Shown piece by piece: positions 2,656 to 24,975 of a stretch of DNA of 25,123 nt. Under the pieces are notes generated by a model, which saw only the letters and a program-made list of their open reading frames with translations, was not told the DNA's origin and searched no databases. This DNA comes from a virus: the IMG/VR virus record IMGVR_UViG_3300012979_000178; one strand, given 5' to 3'. The position numbers were made by a program, and so were the translations under genes. Positions within the stretch are counted from its first letter, which is position 1; each line of letters begins with the position of its first letter.

Positions 2656-2691
2656 TTGATTTTCATTAAAAAATATTGTATAATATATATA
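2656..2691 (+). promoter_or_regulatory. conserved sigma-A-type promoter (-35 TTGATT, 17-bp spacer, extended -10 TGTATAATATATATA), first of 10 copies
   Basis: The motif is shared with nine other sites. It lies about 25 nt upstream of the GAAAGGAAATAAAAATG RBS and start. Confidence 0.7.
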
Positions 2692-2713
2692 CAAAATATG
2701 AAAGGAAATAAAA

Positions 2714-2875
2714 ATGATTAAAATTTTTTCACATAGTCTTACTTCTTCTCTTGAAAATATGGTAAATATTTGGCTTAATGATAATCTTAATAAAATTAAT
2801 ATTCGAGATATTCGTTTTTCAGCTTGTTCAGATGGAATGAAGTATGTTTTTATCACTTATATTAAAGAGGAATAA
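2714..2875 (+). CDS. small hypothetical protein of 53 aa
   Basis: RBS GAAAGGAAATAAAA and ATG at 2714, ending at a TAA. It is paralogous to the next small ORF. Confidence 0.45.
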   Translation: MIKIFSHSLTSSLENMVNIWLNDNLNKINIRDIRFSACSDGMKYVFITYIKEE

Positions 2876-2877
2876 TT

Positions 2878-3051
2878 ATGGATTAGCTTGAAATTCTTTA
2901 TAATGAATCTATATCACTTCTCGAAAAAGCTATAAATGTATGGCTAGCAAGTAAAAAAGAAATTATAAATGTTAAATAGATAACTTTTATTCCAAAATCC
3001 TCTAATCTATCTTATTATTATGCTTATATTCATTACGAGTTGAAAGGATAA
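2878..3051 (+). CDS. small hypothetical protein, a paralogue of 2714..2875, with two in-frame TAGs
   Basis: ATG at 2878 lies 2 nt after the previous stop. The product is similar to the upstream small protein (NxWL...I.I.dI.F). It ends at the TAA at 3049-3051. Confidence 0.35.
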
Positions 3052-3054
3052 AGT

Positions 3055-3150
3055 ATGGATCTAGGAGATATTATTGAATTAATTCTTGATATTTTAGAAC
3101 TCATATGTGAAATTTATTAGGATAAAAAGAAAGAGAAAGATAAGAAATAA
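3055..3150 (+). CDS. tiny 31-aa ORF with one in-frame TAG and a K/E-rich tail; doubtful
   Basis: An ATG immediately after the previous stop and a TAA at 3148-3150. Confidence 0.2.
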
Positions 3151-3158
3151 AATTTTAT

Positions 3159-3195
3159 TTGAAAATTCTAAAAAAATATTGTATAATATATGTAT
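3159..3195 (+). promoter_or_regulatory. conserved promoter copy 2 (-35 TTGAAA, extended -10 TGTATAAT)
   Basis: Same motif architecture as the other copies, located upstream of the MVP-like gene. Confidence 0.7.
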
Positions 3196-3230
3196 AAAAT
3201 AAAGATAAATATTGAAAGGAAATATTAAAA

Positions 3231-21819: not shown

Positions 21820-21855
21820 TTGATTTGGCTTTGTAGCGATTGGCATTTTAATTAA
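21820..21855 (+). pseudogene. 11-codon remnant of a metallophosphoesterase N-terminus ((M)IWLCSDWHFN*), duplicated downstream at 22864
   Basis: A TTG start 11 nt after AAGGAG. The peptide carries the MPE motif I (D-W-H) and is nearly identical to MAIWITSDWH at 22864..22893. Confidence 0.4.
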
Positions 21856-21922
21856 AATGCCGGTCAAAACACAATAAAATATTTAGAACAATTTTCTAAT
21901 TTAATTAAGAGGTGATGTTAAA

Positions 21923-22861
21923 ATGTATAGTGTATATAAAATTACCAATATTATAAATTAGAAAAATTATATTGGTTCAAGTATTAGACCTGAAAAGCGT
22001 TGGAAAGAACATATTAATAATGCTAATAACCCAAATTCATAGGCATATAATTATCCGTTACAATGTGCTTTTCGAAAATACGGAATTGAAAATTTTAATT
22101 TTGAAATTTTAAAAGATGATTTTAATACTCAAAGTGAAATGACAGAATATGAATAGTTAATGATTATTTTTTATGATTCATTGAATAATGGGTATAATCA
22201 AACTTTACAAACAAATTAGAGTGAAATAGCAAAAGAAAATTTAGAAAAATATTTATAGACAATTCGTTGTAAATGTGCTAAAATAGATAAAAATAATAAT
22301 ATTTTAGAAATTTATAATTCTTATCATGAAGCTGCTAAAAAAAATGGAATGGATCCTGATAATTGTGCTAGTTCAATTAGAGATGTTTGTAAAGGAAAAA
22401 CTTCAAGTGCTAAAGATAAATTTATTTTTCGAGATTTAGATGCTAATGATAATATAATTATTTAGCCGTTTAAACCCTATAAAGGCAAAAAAGCAATAAT
22501 TGGTATTCATATAGAAACAAAAGAAGAAATTTATTTTAATTCTATTAGTGAAGCAGCTAAAATATTAAATACAGATCGTTGGAGTATAACCCAATGTATA
22601 CAAGGAGTATCTCGATACTCCAAAGTTAAAAACTATATATTTAGAGAATTAGATTAGAATGGCAATATTGTAGAAGTTGAAAATTCCATAGAAAATATTT
22701 TACAAAAATATAATTAGACAAATCCGGAAATAAATGGTGAAAGACACACTTTTAAAGACTGGTGTAAAATTTATGGAATTTCTGAAAGTTCTGTTAGAAA
22801 AAGAATAAAAAAAGGAATGGGTGTTGTAGAAGCAATTACAACCCCAAAAGAGAGGTGATTT
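21923..22861 (+). CDS. GIY-YIG homing endonuclease (I-TevI/Seg-like) with 8 in-frame TAG codons
   Basis: The N-terminus VYKITNIIN*KNYIGSS...EKRWKEHI corresponds to the GIY-YIG and RWKEH motifs (compare I-TevI IYQIKNTLNNKVYVGS...EKRWKRHF), followed by NGYN. The frame is continuous for 313 codons apart from the TAGs. It ends at the TGA at 22859. Confidence 0.7.
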
Positions 22862-22863
22862 TT

Positions 22864-23429
22864 ATGGCAATCTGGATTACTTCAGATTGGCATTAGTTTA
22901 TTTTTGCCATGACAGAGAATTTATCTGGGGTCCAAGGCATTTTAATTCTGTTGAAGAAATGAATGAAACTATTGTAGATAGACATAATTCTTTGGTTCTT
23001 CCAGAAGATGATGTATATGTATTGGGCGATTTGATGCTTAATGATAATGAAAAAGGTATTGAATTAATTAAGCGTATGAATGGTAAACTTCATATTGCTA
23101 TTGGAAACCATGACACAGCACCAAGAATTGAATTGTATAAAACTTTACCGAATTTAGTAGATATTAATTACGTTCACACATTTAAATATAGAAAATATAA
23201 TTTCTATTGTTCTCATTATCCTACATTAACAGGAAATCTTGAAGCTGAATCGCTTCATCAAGTAGCAATTAATCTATATGGACATACTCATCAGTCGAGT
23301 AAATTCTATGAAGATAGACCATATATGTTTCATTGTGGTATGGATTCAAATGCTTGTTATCCTGTAAATATTGATTACATTATTGATAAGTGTAAAAATA
23401 AAGTGGCTGAATGCATTGAAATGCTTTAA
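22864..23429 (+). CDS. calcineurin-like metallophosphoesterase with a frame disruption after codon 10. It is a possible pseudogene, sequencing indel or recoding site.
   Basis: RBS AGAGAGG and ATG at 22864 give MAIWITSDWH (motif I D-x-H), then a TAG. The remaining motifs (GDLML, GNHD, GHTH) are in the -1 frame, which is track ORF 22887..23429. Confidence 0.55.
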
Positions 23430-23466
23430 TTAGTTCATTTAAAATTTAATATATAAGGAGAAAATT

Positions 23467-24906
23467 ATGTATCTTTATCTTATTCCAATTGCCGTTATTG
23501 CTGTTATTGTTCTCTTTTGCCTCGGTTATGTAAAGGCTCCTCCGGATCAGGCTTATGTAATTTCCGGGATGATGAAGAAACCTCGTATTCTAATTGGACG
23601 AGCAGGTTTTAAAGTTCCTTTCTTTGAACGTCTTGACAAACTTGCTCTTGGTGCTATTCAGATTGATGTAAAGACTGCTAGTTCGGTTCCCACTGCTGAA
23701 TATATCAATGTAAGAGTTGATTCTAATGTAAATGTAAAAATTGGTCAGGCTCCTGAAATGCTTGAACTTGCTTGTCAGAATTTTCTTAATGTAAAGAGAG
23801 ATGTTATCAATCAGAAGATCAGAGATTTGCTCGAAGGTAATATCCGTGAAATCGTTGGTAGCATGAAGCTTACTGAAATGGTAAGTGATAGAAAGGCTTT
23901 TTCTGAAAAGGTACAGGAAAACGCAGTACCCGATCTTGCGAGATTTGGTCTTGAGCTTATTTCTTTTAATGTTCAGAATTTTGTAGATGATAATGGTGTA
24001 ATTGATAATCTTGGTATTGATAATGTAGAGCAGATTCGCAAGAAGGCTGCTATTGCTAAGTCTGATGCCCAGAGAGAAATTGCAATTGCTGAAGCTGAAA
24101 ATACTAAAATTGCAAATGATGCTCGTGTAAAGGCGGCTGAAGAAATTGCTGCCCGAGACAATGATCTTGAAATTAAGCAGGCGGCTCTTAAGCAGGCAGC
24201 TGATACTGAAAAGGCTCGTGCAGCAGCTGCTATGGCAATCGAATCTGAAAATCAGAATAAACTTAAAAATATTGCAGCTACGGATGCTGAAATTGCAAAG
24301 GCTGAACGCGAAGCCGATCTGAAGCAGAAAGAAATCGAACTGAAAGAATATGAACTTGACGCTCTTGTCCGCAAGCAGGCAGACGCAGATAAATATGCAG
24401 TAGAGCAGAAGGCAGCCGCAGAACTTGCTGTTCGTCAGAGAAAAGCAGAAGCTGAAAAGTTTGAACGTGAACAGCGTGCAGAAGCTGAAAAGTTTGCAGC
24501 AATTCAGGAAGCAGAAGCAGAAAAAGCAAAGGCTGATGCCGCTAAATATGCCGCACTTGCAGAAGCAGAAGGTATTGCCGCTGTAAAGAAAGCTGAAGCA
24601 GAAGGTATTCGTGCTACTGGTATTGCAGAAGCAGAAGGTATTGAAAAGAAGGCAGAAGCCCAGAAGAAGATGGGTGAAGCTTCCGTTCTTGAAATGTACT
24701 TCCAGATGCTTCCGAACGCTGTAGCAAGTGCTGCCGCACCTCTTGAAAATGTTGGAAACATTACAATGTATGGCGACGGCAATCAATCTAAGCTCGTCGG
24801 CGACGTAATGAAGACTGTAAATCAGGTTACCGAAGGTATGAAAGCTAACGGTATTGATATCGCGTCACTTATTGCTGGCGCACTCTCCAAGAAAGACAGT
24901 AAGTAA
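23467..24906 (+). CDS. floT: flotillin (FloT/YuaG-type SPFH/band-7 protein): N-terminal TM segment, SPFH domain, and an E/A-rich coiled coil
   Basis: RBS AAGGAG. It is collinear with B. subtilis FloT: LEGNIREIVGSMKLTEM...FSEKVQ...DLARFGLELISF; KQADADKYAVEQKAAAE; MLPNAVASAAAPLENVGNIT. Confidence 0.85.
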   Translation: MYLYLIPIAVIAVIVLFCLGYVKAPPDQAYVISGMMKKPRILIGRAGFKVPFFERLDKLALGAIQIDVKTASSVPTAEYINVRVDSNVNVKIGQAPEMLELACQNFLNVKRDVINQKIRDLLEGNIREIVGSMKLTEMVSDRKAFSEKVQENAVPDLARFGLELISFNVQNFVDDNGVIDNLGIDNVEQIRKKAAIAKSDAQREIAIAEAENTKIANDARVKAAEEIAARDNDLEIKQAALKQAADTEKARAAAAMAIESENQNKLKNIAATDAEIAKAEREADLKQKEIELKEYELDALVRKQADADKYAVEQKAAAELAVRQRKAEAEKFEREQRAEAEKFAAIQEAEAEKAKADAAKYAALAEAEGIAAVKKAEAEGIRATGIAEAEGIEKKAEAQKKMGEASVLEMYFQMLPNAVASAAAPLENVGNITMYGDGNQSKLVGDVMKTVNQVTEGMKANGIDIASLIAGALSKKDSK

Positions 24907-24914
24907 AAATAAAT

Positions 24915-24955
24915 AAGTAAGGAAGATTTTATTCTTCCTTACTTTGATTTTTCTT
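24915..24955 (+). terminator. rho-independent terminator
   Basis: Stem AAGTAAGGAAGA / TCTTCCTTACTT with a 6-nt loop, then a T-rich tract. Confidence 0.75.
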
Positions 24956-24975
24956 AAAATTTTTGTTATAATAAA
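24944..24975 (+). promoter_or_regulatory. conserved promoter copy 10 (-35 TTGATT, TGTTATAAT)
   Basis: Motif match. Confidence 0.65.

What the first reader, a model, noticed from the sequence alone, without database searches (positions are those of the whole stretch)
2656..24975. Ten copies of one strongly conserved sigma-A-type promoter (-35 TTGATT/TTGTTT, 17-bp spacer, extended -10 TGnTATAATATATATA) plus a fixed RBS box GAAAGGAAATAAAAATG
The copies sit at 2656, 3159, 5818, 8070, 12266 (degenerate), 13644, 15209, 20266, 21286 and 24944. Each lies immediately after an intrinsic terminator and about 25 nt upstream of the first ATG of an operon. Copies 3 and 7 are identical over about 45 nt, spanning promoter, spacer and RBS. 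This indicates a cassette-like transcription unit architecture for early or auxiliary genes (MVP, NAD salvage, kinase, flotillin and others). The repeats could also support recombinational shuffling of morons. The -35 hexamer is partly embedded in the T-tract of the preceding terminator.
Basis: seen in the sequence. Interest (0 to 1): 0.5.

Follow-up and report, generated by a model that had tools for sequence, protein, structure and literature searches.

The report
Conserved host-type phage promoter array
Nine near-identical copies of a very strong bacterial-type (sigma-A) promoter, most of them directly behind a terminator, divide this phage fragment into small transcription units. This is a known kind of phage design, found here in an uncultured gut or rumen phage family that also reads the TAG stop codon as an amino acid.

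Summary
There are nine copies, not ten. All are on the + strand and have TTG at -35, an exact 17-nt spacer and an exact TATAAT. They score 33-50 bits against their own matrix, and nothing else in the window exceeds 2 bits. The 12266 site is not a copy. Seven of nine directly follow an intrinsic terminator. The exact RBS box occurs three times. Copies 3 and 7 share 44 nt, which end before the RBS.

The same roughly 45-nt block recurs hundreds of times in related uncultured phage contigs. There it is co-oriented with genes 219:2, keeps a strict 17-nt spacer, lies mostly 25-40 nt upstream of start codons, and persists upstream of orthologous genes whose flanks are unrelated.

The best explanation is a host sigma-A RNA polymerase promoter family, probably early. 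It is analogous to T4, T5 and SPO1 early promoters, so it is a new member of a known kind. What is unusual is the conservation of the spacer and of the 13 nt after the -10, about 37 bits in total against about 12 needed.

Context found in passing: the phage uses TAG as a sense codon in structural and homing-endonuclease genes. The promoter array covers the TAG-free genes, and in relatives the same promoter drives the amber-suppressor tRNA.

The parts
2656..2713 (+). Promoter copy 1 plus leader. TTGATT, 17-nt spacer, TATAAT at 2679-2684, predicted +1 A at 2691, GAAAGGAAAT RBS at 2700, ATG at 2714 (53-aa ORF).
   Evidence: Matrix score 47.8 bits. Geometry.
3159..3230 (+). Promoter copy 2 plus leader. 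TTGAAA, 17-nt spacer, TATAAT at 3182-3187, predicted +1 at 3194, GAAAGGAAAT at 3214, ATG at 3231 (vault-protein-like gene). No terminator upstream.
   Evidence: 36.4 bits. No hairpin upstream. The orthologous promoter is kept upstream of the same gene in about 20 of 26 relatives.
5818..5874 (+). Promoter copy 3 plus leader. TTGTTT, 17-nt spacer, TGATATAAT with TATAAT at 5841-5846, predicted +1 at 5853, ATG at 5875.
   Evidence: 50.0 bits. A 44-nt stretch is identical to copy 6 at 15206-15249.
8069..8125 (+). Promoter copy 4 plus leader. TTGATT, 17-nt spacer, TGATATAAT with TATAAT at 8092-8097, predicted +1 at 8104, ATG at 8126 (35-aa ORF).
   Evidence: 48.6 bits. Geometry. The gene is called in the source contig.
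13644..13695 (+). Promoter copy 5 plus leader. TTGTTT, 17-nt spacer, TGGTATAAT with TATAAT at 13667-13672. Variant AAAATAA after the -10. ATG at 13696 (nicotinamidase-like gene).
   Evidence: 39.1 bits. Geometry. Pfam isochorismatase hit.
15209..15271 (+). Promoter copy 6 plus leader. TTGTTT, 17-nt spacer, TGATATAAT with TATAAT at 15232-15237, predicted +1 at 15244, ATG at 15272 (53-aa ORF).
   Evidence: 50.0 bits. Geometry and identity.
20265..20322 (+). Promoter copy 7 plus leader. TTGATT, 17-nt spacer, TGTTATAAT with TATAAT at 20288-20293, predicted +1 at 20300, GAAAGGAAAT at 20309, ATG at 20323.
   Evidence: 45.2 bits..
21285..21342 (+). Promoter copy 8 plus leader. TTGATT, 17-nt spacer, TGTTATAAT with TATAAT at 21308-21313, ATG at 21343 (AAA_33 kinase). 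It starts 10 nt after the stop codon of the preceding gene. No terminator upstream.
   Evidence: 40.2 bits. No hairpin..
24944..25004 (+). Promoter copy 9 plus leader. TTGATT, 17-nt spacer, TGTTATAAT with TATAAT at 24967-24972. Variant AAAATAA after the -10. AGGAGG RBS, ATG at 25005; the gene runs off the window.
   Evidence: 33.4 bits..
2604..2650 (+). Intrinsic terminator before copy 1 (20-bp stem flanked by an A-tract and a T-tract). It closes the TAG-recoded structural gene that ends at 2601.
   Evidence: Fold energy -29.6 kcal/mol..
5785..5816 (+). Intrinsic terminator before copy 3, after the vault-protein-like gene.
8036..8065 (+). Intrinsic terminator before copy 4.
13619..13645 (+). 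Intrinsic terminator before copy 5. Its T-run overlaps the TTG of the -35.
15181..15209 (+). Intrinsic terminator before copy 6. The stem ends on the first T of the -35.
20238..20265 (+). Intrinsic terminator before copy 7. The stem ends on the first T of the -35.
24915..24944 (+). Intrinsic terminator before copy 9, after the flotillin-like gene. The stem ends on the first T of the -35.
12266..12349 (+). NOT a copy of the motif. It is a generic promoter-like site (TTTAAA, 16-nt spacer, TATAAT at 12297-12302) embedded in the left arm of a 21-bp hairpin (12281-12349). The right arm of the hairpin covers the ATG of a homing-endonuclease gene, and the Shine-Dalgarno sequence lies in the loop.
   Evidence: Absent from the matrix's top-scoring sites. 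Generic match. Hairpin energy -20.6 kcal/mol.

Best explanation
These are nine copies of a phage promoter family read by the host's housekeeping (sigma-A, sigma-70-type) RNA polymerase.

Each copy supplies a TTGA-type -35, an exact 17-nt spacer, usually a TATG (-16/extended -10) element and a perfect TATAAT. Transcription is predicted to start at the A that lies 7 nt after the -10. The leader is 11-31 nt long (about 17 in most copies), purine-rich, and carries an AAAGGA-type ribosome-binding site.

Most copies sit directly behind an intrinsic terminator whose U-tract runs into the -35. The region is thereby cut into short, insulated, individually strong transcription units (inferred).

The units cover the genes that can be translated with the standard code: vault-like protein, NAD salvage, Thg1, RNA ligase, kinase, phosphoesterases and flotillin. 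In relatives they also cover tRNA arrays, including the amber-suppressor tRNA. The family most likely constitutes the host-polymerase-dependent, early class of the infection programme. The timing is inferred, not shown.

The additional conservation of the spacer (T-tract, then A-tract) and of ATATATA(G)AAA after the -10 is under selection across the family. It probably tunes strength (easy melting, an A start), but it may also carry a second signal.
For: Shown by computation:
- Nine sites score 33-50 bits, all on the gene strand; the next best position scores below 2 bits.
- In 952 kb of related viral loci, TTGA-N19-TATAAT occurs 468 times with a 17-nt spacer. Spacers of 14-20 nt other than 17 give only 4-24 occurrences each. 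This is the spacing signature of sigma-70-family holoenzymes.
- In 27 loci chosen by a protein rather than by the motif (563 kb), matrix hits number 219 on the gene strand and 2 on the opposite strand.
- In 256 of 322 family sites an ATG-initiated ORF starts within 150 nt of the -10, mostly 25-40 nt away.
- A terminator abuts the -35 at 47 of 158 family promoters, against 27 of 3000 random positions, and at 7 of 9 in the window.
- The promoter is retained upstream of the orthologous vault-like gene in about 20 of 26 relatives. These share only 56-73% protein identity, and their upstream flanks are unrelated sequence. This argues for purifying selection rather than recent copying.
- A promoter lies within 120 nt upstream of 18% of TAG-free genes but only 5.7% of genes with two or more in-frame TAG codons (odds ratio 3.7, p = 1e-8).
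- The same promoter sits 52-54 nt upstream of the suppressor tRNA(CUA) in L023 and L027.
- The same 23-mer also occurs in bacterial isolate genomes (Clostridium tyrobutyricum, Ruminococcus albus, Brachyspira).

From established knowledge (memory): the sigma-A consensus is TTGACA-17-TATAAT, and the TRTG -16 element is typical of Gram-positive promoters (Voskuil and Chambliss 1998).
Against: - There are no transcript 5' ends, no in vitro transcription and no known host. Polymerase identity, start site and timing are all inferred.
- The TG of the extended -10 is not conserved across the family (many copies read TATTATATAAT or TATAATATAAT). The 13 nt after the -10 are conserved at 9.1 bits and the spacer at 11.4 bits, which is atypical for plain sigma-A promoters.
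- About 6% of genes with two or more in-frame TAG codons also have a copy upstream, so the class is not strictly tied to TAG-free genes.
- Some motif-bearing contigs encode a YonO-like single-subunit RNA polymerase. A phage enzyme therefore exists in this general group of phages.
Confidence: 0.85

Rival explanations
1. Dual-function element. It is a sigma-A promoter that also carries an operator or other signal in the conserved spacer and in the -6..+5 block (ATATATAGAAA). A phage-encoded factor would use this to switch the whole class off or on at the transition to the TAG-recoded late programme. Alternatively, the conserved first nucleotides act at the RNA level.
For: - There is excess information. 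Columns not used for selection carry 11.4 bits in the spacer and 9.1 bits in the 13 nt after the -10. The total is about 37 bits, against about 12.3 bits needed for the observed site density.
- The block is conserved across genomes whose proteins are only 56-73% identical.
- The post -10 block is better conserved across the family than the extended -10 TG.
- From memory: a similar excess of information at T7 promoters was interpreted as a possible second binding function (Schneider and Stormo).
Against: - No candidate regulator was identified.
- An AT-rich spacer and discriminator and an A start could simply maximise strength.
- T4 and T5 early promoters also exceed the host consensus without needing an operator.
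- Two window copies (13667 and 24967) replace ATATATA with AAAATAA and still keep everything else.
Confidence: 0.2
2. The motif is recognised not by the host sigma-A holoenzyme but by a phage-encoded sigma factor or a phage RNA polymerase (for example the YonO-like enzyme) that happens to prefer an AT-rich TATAAT-like sequence.
For: - A YonO-like protein with the DxDxD catalytic motif is encoded on one motif-bearing contig (L046) and on about 80 other viral contigs (L270-L349). Most of these are 30-205 kb and many come from the same metagenomes.
- Conservation extends beyond the canonical sigma-A elements.
Against: - Every canonical sigma-70 determinant is present: an invariant TTG at -35, a strict 17-nt spacer, a perfect TATAAT and frequent TRTG.
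- The link between the YonO-like gene and the window's own family is unproven.
- The motif is sparse and shows only weak strand bias around those polymerase genes (39 against 20 sites in 506 kb).
- From memory: in SPbeta, YonO serves late genes, not early ones.
- The same 23-mer occurs in bacterial chromosomes.
Confidence: 0.06
3. The repeats are primarily recombination or mobile-element sequences (a dispersed repeat that mediates cassette shuffling), and their promoter-like appearance is incidental.
For: - Gene content between conserved anchors differs among relatives.
- In some relatives homology breaks exactly at the upstream edge of the promoter.
- Two window copies share 44 identical nt.
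Against: - Orientation bias is 219:2 with genes, the distance to start codons is fixed and the spacer is strictly 17 nt. None of these is expected for a recombination repeat.
- No terminal inverted repeats or target duplications were noticed on inspecting the aligned copies; no dedicated repeat scan was run.
- Copies within one genome are only slightly more alike than copies between genomes (mean 11.7 against 12.8 differences per 48 nt), so there is little concerted evolution.
- The variable insertions are mostly homing endonuclease genes, which have their own mobility mechanism.
Confidence: 0.02

Closest known systems
Bacteriophage T4 early promoters (about 40 copies, recognised by unmodified host sigma-70 polymerase). 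Comparison from memory; not tested here.
   Same: Many near-identical copies within one phage genome. Their consensus is richer than the host consensus and includes an extended -10 and AT-rich flanks. They head short units of small or accessory genes and are co-oriented in an early region.
   Different: The T4 -35 is GTTTAC-like. T4 has no regular terminator-promoter fusion, and its host is a proteobacterium. Here the -35 is TTGA(T/C), the spacer and the 13 nt after the -10 are themselves conserved, and the phage is TAG-recoded.
Host-takeover module of Bacillus phage SPO1, and similar early regions of Herelleviridae such as phage K. Comparison from memory; not tested here.
   Same: A Gram-positive setting. 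Tightly packed short operons, each with a strong sigma-A promoter, a strong RBS and a terminator, arranged head to tail on one strand.
   Different: The SPO1 module lies in the terminal redundancy and encodes host shut-off proteins. Here the units encode metabolic and RNA-repair functions and tRNAs and span at least 22 kb. There is no sequence relationship.
Phage T5 early promoters (P_N25, P_26 and others). Comparison from memory.
   Same: Exceptionally strong host-polymerase promoters with conserved AT-rich blocks outside the hexamers, in the spacer and in the initially transcribed region.
   Different: The conserved blocks differ in sequence and position. T5 promoters are not paired with upstream terminators.
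Gram-positive '-16 region' (TRTG) / extended -10 promoters (Voskuil and Chambliss 1998, from memory).
   Same: TATGnTATAAT in seven of nine window copies matches TRTGnTATAAT.
   Different: Across the family the G is often replaced by A or T, so the element is not obligatory here.
Stop-codon-recoded gut phages (Borges et al., bioRxiv 10.1101/2021.08.26.457843; phAss-1, PMC10607447).
   Same: TAG is used in frame in structural genes. Suppressor tRNA(CUA) is present in relatives. Genomes are large (about 100-200 kb), low in G+C and come from animal and human gut. The DnaE-type polymerase is related to that of Enterococcus EF1 and SPbeta-like phages.
   Different: Those papers describe no promoters ('promoter' occurs zero times in either text). 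The link between a promoter class and code-compatible genes is made here.

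Membership tests
Sigma-70/sigma-A housekeeping promoter | A -35 hexamer resembling TTGACA | tested here: met
   TTG is invariant. The window hexamers are TTGATT (5 copies), TTGTTT (3) and TTGAAA (1). In matrix-selected family sites position 4 is A in 95% and position 5 is T or C; the sites selected only on TTGA and TATAAT show C as the majority base at position 5.
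Sigma-70/sigma-A housekeeping promoter | A -10 hexamer TATAAT | tested here: met
   Exact TATAAT in 9 of 9 copies.
Sigma-70/sigma-A housekeeping promoter | A spacer of 17 +/- 1 nt between the hexamers | tested here: met
   17 nt in 9 of 9 copies. In related loci there are 468 sites with a 17-nt spacer, against 4-24 for each other spacer length from 14 to 20 nt.
Sigma-70/sigma-A housekeeping promoter | Extended -10 / -16 element (TG or TRTG one base upstream of the -10) | tested here: inconclusive
   In the correct register in 7 of 9 window copies and shifted by one base in two. It is frequently absent in relatives.
Sigma-70/sigma-A housekeeping promoter | Located upstream of genes and co-oriented with them | tested here: met
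   219:2 strand bias. Start codons lie 23-43 nt after the -10 in the window and mostly 25-40 nt after it in the family.
Sigma-70/sigma-A housekeeping promoter | Transcription initiates about 7 nt downstream of the -10 with host sigma-A holoenzyme | not testable with these tools
   No transcript data and no known host. The predicted +1 is an A in all nine copies.
Phage early-promoter family (T4, T5 or SPO1 type) | Many copies in one phage genome, more alike than the host consensus requires | tested here: met
   Nine copies in 22 kb. About one copy per 2.6 kb in relatives. About 37 bits against about 12 needed.
Phage early-promoter family (T4, T5 or SPO1 type) | Active immediately after infection, before phage protein synthesis | not testable with these tools
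   Only indirect support: copies are enriched before TAG-free genes and depleted before genes with two or more TAG codons (odds ratio 3.7).
Intrinsic (Rho-independent) terminator | A G+C-containing hairpin followed directly by a T-run on the transcribed strand | tested here: met
   Seven hairpins, each ending 0-6 nt before a -35. Termination itself was not measured.
Dispersed mobile or recombination repeat (MITE-like) | Occurs in both orientations, independent of genes, with terminal inverted repeats or target duplications | tested here: not met
   One orientation only. No terminal inverted repeats or duplications were noticed on inspecting the aligned copies; no dedicated repeat scan was run.
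Promoter of a phage-encoded RNA polymerase (YonO-like or virion RNAP) | Recognised by the phage enzyme, and the genome encodes such an enzyme | tested here: inconclusive
   A YonO-like gene is found on one motif-bearing contig and on about 80 others, but none is a contig shown to belong to the window's family. Recognition is not testable.

The most novel reading that the evidence does not exclude
The 45-bp block is the transcriptional half of the phage's code-switch programme. One host-polymerase promoter class drives every standard-code gene and also the amber-suppressor tRNA. Its excess conservation (the spacer and the -6..+5 block) is an operator or RNA signal through which a phage factor times the hand-over to TAG-recoded late genes and to the homing endonucleases.
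Probability: 0.15. Interest if true: 0.6.

Novelty: new member of a known kind. Interest (0 to 1): 0.35.

Why it matters
- The motif gives a precise, searchable marker of host-polymerase-dependent transcription units in a large family of uncultured gut and rumen phages. It was found in hundreds of copies on dozens of contigs.
- It provides ready-made strong promoter, leader and terminator parts for low-G+C Firmicutes.
- It links transcription to stop-codon recoding. The promoter class marks the genes that can be translated before the code switch, and in relatives it drives the suppressor tRNA itself. The proposed timing role of recoding thus becomes directly testable by 5'-end mapping.
- As a promoter family alone it is an expected feature of large lytic phages.

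Tried and rejected
- The generic sigma-70 consensus scan is uninformative in this AT-rich DNA: 114 sites against 112.5 expected, and 32 against 25.7.
- Megablast of the window against GenBank phages found nothing. The window's source contig is only about 24 kb, so the locus could not be extended.
- Rfam and tRNA scans of the window found nothing.
- I tested whether the identical extended -10 found four to five times in Clostridium tyrobutyricum marks rRNA operons. There is no Rfam hit nearby, so its nature is unresolved.
- Host assignment from MAG bins failed. Relatives are binned into Acutalibacteraceae, Agathobacter, Methanobrevibacter and Treponema MAGs, which is mutually inconsistent. Only 'probably Clostridia' can be said.
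- A k-mer search for a distinct late promoter upstream of TAG-containing genes gave no convincing motif; the set was too heterogeneous.
- The cultured distant relative Enterocloster phage PMBT24 (first 50 kb) lacks the motif.
- The YonO-like RNA polymerase could not be placed on any contig proven to belong to the window's family.
- A literature string search for the motif, and the recoding papers, contain no description of it.
- Aligning the GIY-YIG endonuclease to relatives to assign an amino acid to TAG was not decisive. Gln was the most frequent residue, but the positions are variable.

Full report
**Observation**

The window is about 30% G+C and all credible genes are on the + strand. Reading the ten claimed sites shows nine that align without gaps. 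The aligned block is TTG(A/T)TT, a 17-nt spacer rich in T and then A, usually TATG or TTTG, an exact TATAAT, and then ATATATA (or AAAATAA twice) followed by A-rich sequence.

A 42-nt weight matrix built from these nine scores them at 33-50 bits, all on the + strand. The best other position on either strand scores below 2 bits, and leave-one-out scores stay at 15-47 bits. A generic sigma-70 scan is not enriched over shuffles. The signal is therefore the extended motif and not base composition.

The tenth site (12266) is not a member, because its hexamer spacing is wrong. It does not appear among the matrix's top-scoring sites, and by hand count TTGATT lies 20-25 nt before the -10 candidates. 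It is discussed under 'Context' below.

Details of the nine copies:
- Seven of nine directly follow a hairpin with a T-run that ends 0-6 nt before the TTG, or on it. The two exceptions are the copy before the vault-protein-like gene and the copy before the kinase.
- The ATG follows the -10 by 23-43 nt.
- The exact RBS string GAAAGGAAAT occurs three times, always behind a copy. The other copies have looser AAAGGAA variants, and internal genes use other Shine-Dalgarno sequences.

**Relatives**

The window has no near match among GenBank phages, and its source contig is only about 24 kb. An exact 23-mer from the motif, however, hits at least 120 stretches of IMG/VR viral contigs, mostly 100-200 kb long. 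Many of these encode the same genes at 65-79% nucleotide identity: vault-like protein, flotillin, Thg1 and RNA ligase.

To avoid ascertainment by the motif, I fetched 27 loci through the vault-like protein alone. In those 563 kb the matrix finds 219 sites on the gene strand and 2 on the other strand, about one per 2.6 kb.

Across the first set of loci, TTGA-N19-TATAAT occurs 468 times with a 17-nt spacer. Any other spacer length from 14 to 20 nt gives 4-24 occurrences. An ATG-initiated ORF starts within 150 nt of the -10 in 256 of 322 sites, mostly 25-40 nt away.

A strict terminator definition is met directly upstream of 47 of 158 family promoters, against 27 of 3000 random positions.

Upstream of the orthologous vault-like gene the promoter is retained in about 20 of 26 relatives (56-73% protein identity). 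The sequence just upstream of the -35 is unrelated between groups: a terminator behind a homing-endonuclease gene in some, coding sequence in others. This combination points to selection on a transcription signal. It does not fit a recently copied repeat or a mobile element.

**Mechanism**

Every determinant of a sigma-70-family housekeeping promoter is present: a TTG-containing -35, a rigid 17-nt spacer, a perfect -10, and often the Gram-positive TRTG '-16' element. The best explanation is therefore recognition by host sigma-A RNA polymerase. The predicted start is the A 7 nt after the -10, and the leader is short and purine-rich. This is inferred; no transcript data exist.

With terminators fused to most copies, the region becomes a string of short, insulated units. 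Gene order across the family is largely conserved, running from the vault-like gene through a nucleotidyltransferase, an exonuclease, the RNA ligase, NADAR, a phosphoesterase, the kinase and a second phosphoesterase to flotillin. The variable insertions are mostly homing endonucleases. 'Cassette architecture' is therefore a fair description, but 'morons' is not.

Recombination at the repeats is neither shown nor excluded. Copies within a genome are barely more alike than copies between genomes (11.7 against 12.8 differences per 48 nt), which argues against strong concerted evolution.

**What is unusual**

I selected family sites only on TTG-N20-TATAAT. The columns not used for selection still carry 11.4 bits in the spacer and 9.1 bits in the 13 nt after the -10. 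The total is roughly 37 bits, while the observed site density needs about 12.3 bits.

Across genomes the block ATATATAGAAA is better conserved than the extended -10 TG. This may simply maximise strength through easy melting and an A start, as in T4 and T5 early promoters (from memory). It also leaves room for a second function, such as an operator or an RNA 5' signal, which I rate at about 0.2.

A YonO-like enzyme with a DxDxD motif exists on one motif-bearing contig and on about 80 other viral contigs, most of them 30-205 kb. None of those contigs is proven to belong to the window's family, and the motif is sparse and shows only weak strand bias around those genes (39 against 20 sites).

**Context found in passing**

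- **TAG as a sense codon.** The frame of the two 'ORFs' 1246-1890 and 1936-2412 is open from 646 to 2598. It has seven in-frame stops, all TAG, and no TAA or TGA.
- **Other genes with in-frame TAG.** The gene 159-632 has two in-frame TAG codons. A GIY-YIG homing endonuclease (21923-22858) has eight and no frameshift. The two other homing endonucleases have one each.
- **True stop codons.** The 29 remaining genes all end in TAA (24) or TGA (5), never TAG. The phage therefore reads TAG as a sense codon, probably Gln by analogy with the phages described by Borges et al. and with phAss-1. The amino acid was not established here.
- **Position of the array.** The promoter array begins immediately after the recoded structural gene and its terminator.
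- **Association in the family.** A promoter precedes 18% of TAG-free genes but only 5.7% of genes with two or more TAG codons (p = 1e-8).
- **Homing endonucleases.** 26 of 27 homing-endonuclease homologues in the family contain in-frame TAG. The conserved neighbouring genes are nearly all TAG-free.
- **Suppressor tRNA.** Motif-bearing relatives carry tRNA arrays with suppressor tRNA(CUA). In two of them the same promoter lies 52-54 nt upstream of that tRNA.
- **The 12266 site.** It sits in a 21-bp hairpin that pairs a -10-like box with the endonuclease's start codon. From memory, this resembles the translational delay of T4 homing endonucleases.

**Comparison and verdict**

The closest analogues are the T4 early promoters, the SPO1 host-takeover module and the T5 early promoters. 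All are multi-copy host-polymerase promoters richer than the host consensus. The two recoding papers checked for the word contain no mention of a promoter, the theta-ribozyme paper mentions only the T7 promoter used in its constructs, and a literature string search found no description of the motif.

The feature is real and functional-looking, but it is a new member of a known kind. Its added value is as a marker of the standard-code, host-dependent gene class in TAG-recoded phages, together with the unexplained excess conservation. Interest: 0.35.

Noticed in passing
window 159-632 and 646-2598 (frame of 1246): TAG is used as a sense codon. One continuous tail-fibre-like gene (646-2598) has seven in-frame TAG codons and no TAA or TGA, so the two ORFs 1246-1890 and 1936-2412 are fragments of it. 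Gene 159-632 has two TAG codons. None of the other 29 genes ends in TAG (24 end in TAA and 5 in TGA).
   Followed up: partly
window 10077-10811, 12336-13187, 21923-22858; family loci L122-L148: All three homing-endonuclease genes inside the otherwise TAG-free region contain in-frame TAG codons (at 10161; at 12477; and eight in the GIY-YIG gene, with no frameshift). In relatives, 26 of 27 homologues of the first two endonucleases also do, while neighbouring conserved genes do not. Recoding may delay endonuclease translation until the suppressor tRNA is present.
   Followed up: partly
L023 4030-4179 (-), L027 1220-1367 (-), L026, L100; L013: Motif-bearing relatives carry tRNA arrays with amber-suppressor tRNA(CUA). 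In L023 and L027 the same promoter lies 52-54 nt upstream of it, with a small hairpin in between. L013, on a contig that also holds close homologues of the window's genes, instead has a tRNA with anticodon UCA, a possible opal suppressor.
   Followed up: partly
window 12281-12349: A 21-bp hairpin (-20.6 kcal/mol) pairs a TATAAT-containing left arm with the start codon of a homing-endonuclease gene, and the Shine-Dalgarno sequence lies in the loop. Read-through transcripts would hide the start codon. The arrangement resembles the translational control of T4 homing endonucleases (from memory).
   Followed up: partly
window 22866 and 15988-16440: Gene starts need revision. The second phosphoesterase most likely starts at ATG 22866 (MAIWITSD...) rather than at TTG 22887. 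The 95-aa ORF at 16153 may start at 15988 if an in-frame TAG is read through, which would fill the 192-nt gap.
   Followed up: no
L165, L196, L204, L210 (Clostridium tyrobutyricum isolates): A multi-copy element of about 90 nt in C. tyrobutyricum carries the identical ATGTTATAATATATATA block. No rRNA or other Rfam family lies nearby, and its nature is unknown.
   Followed up: partly
L046 556-3030; L270-L349; PMBT24 (L266) 9612-12107: A protein of about 820 aa with an invariant DxDxD motif is related to the 'RNA-dependent RNA polymerase' annotated at the head of the late operon of Enterocloster phage PMBT24. It is probably a YonO-like single-subunit RNA polymerase. It is encoded on one motif-bearing contig and on about 80 other viral contigs, most of them 30-205 kb.
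   Followed up: partly
L164/L206/L231 (Methanobrevibacter RUG12316), L220/L242 (Treponema RGIG9546), L174/L185/L211 (Acutalibacteraceae JAZNWP010000048.1, 176 kb): Contigs deposited inside bacterial and archaeal MAGs carry this phage family's promoter, and several also carry its genes. They are evidently mis-binned phage genomes. The bins disagree with one another, so they do not identify the host.
   Followed up: partly
window 3231-5780, 23467-24906, 13696-19977: The gene content is unusual for a phage. It includes a major-vault-protein-like gene (shoulder domain, E = 1e-20), whose only hits in the GenBank phage collection are three metagenomic huge-phage records of 462-735 kb. It also includes a flotillin-like gene, a full NAD salvage set (nicotinamidase, NAPRTase, adenylyltransferase-like, NAD synthase, NADAR), Thg1 and an RNA ligase.
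   Followed up: partly
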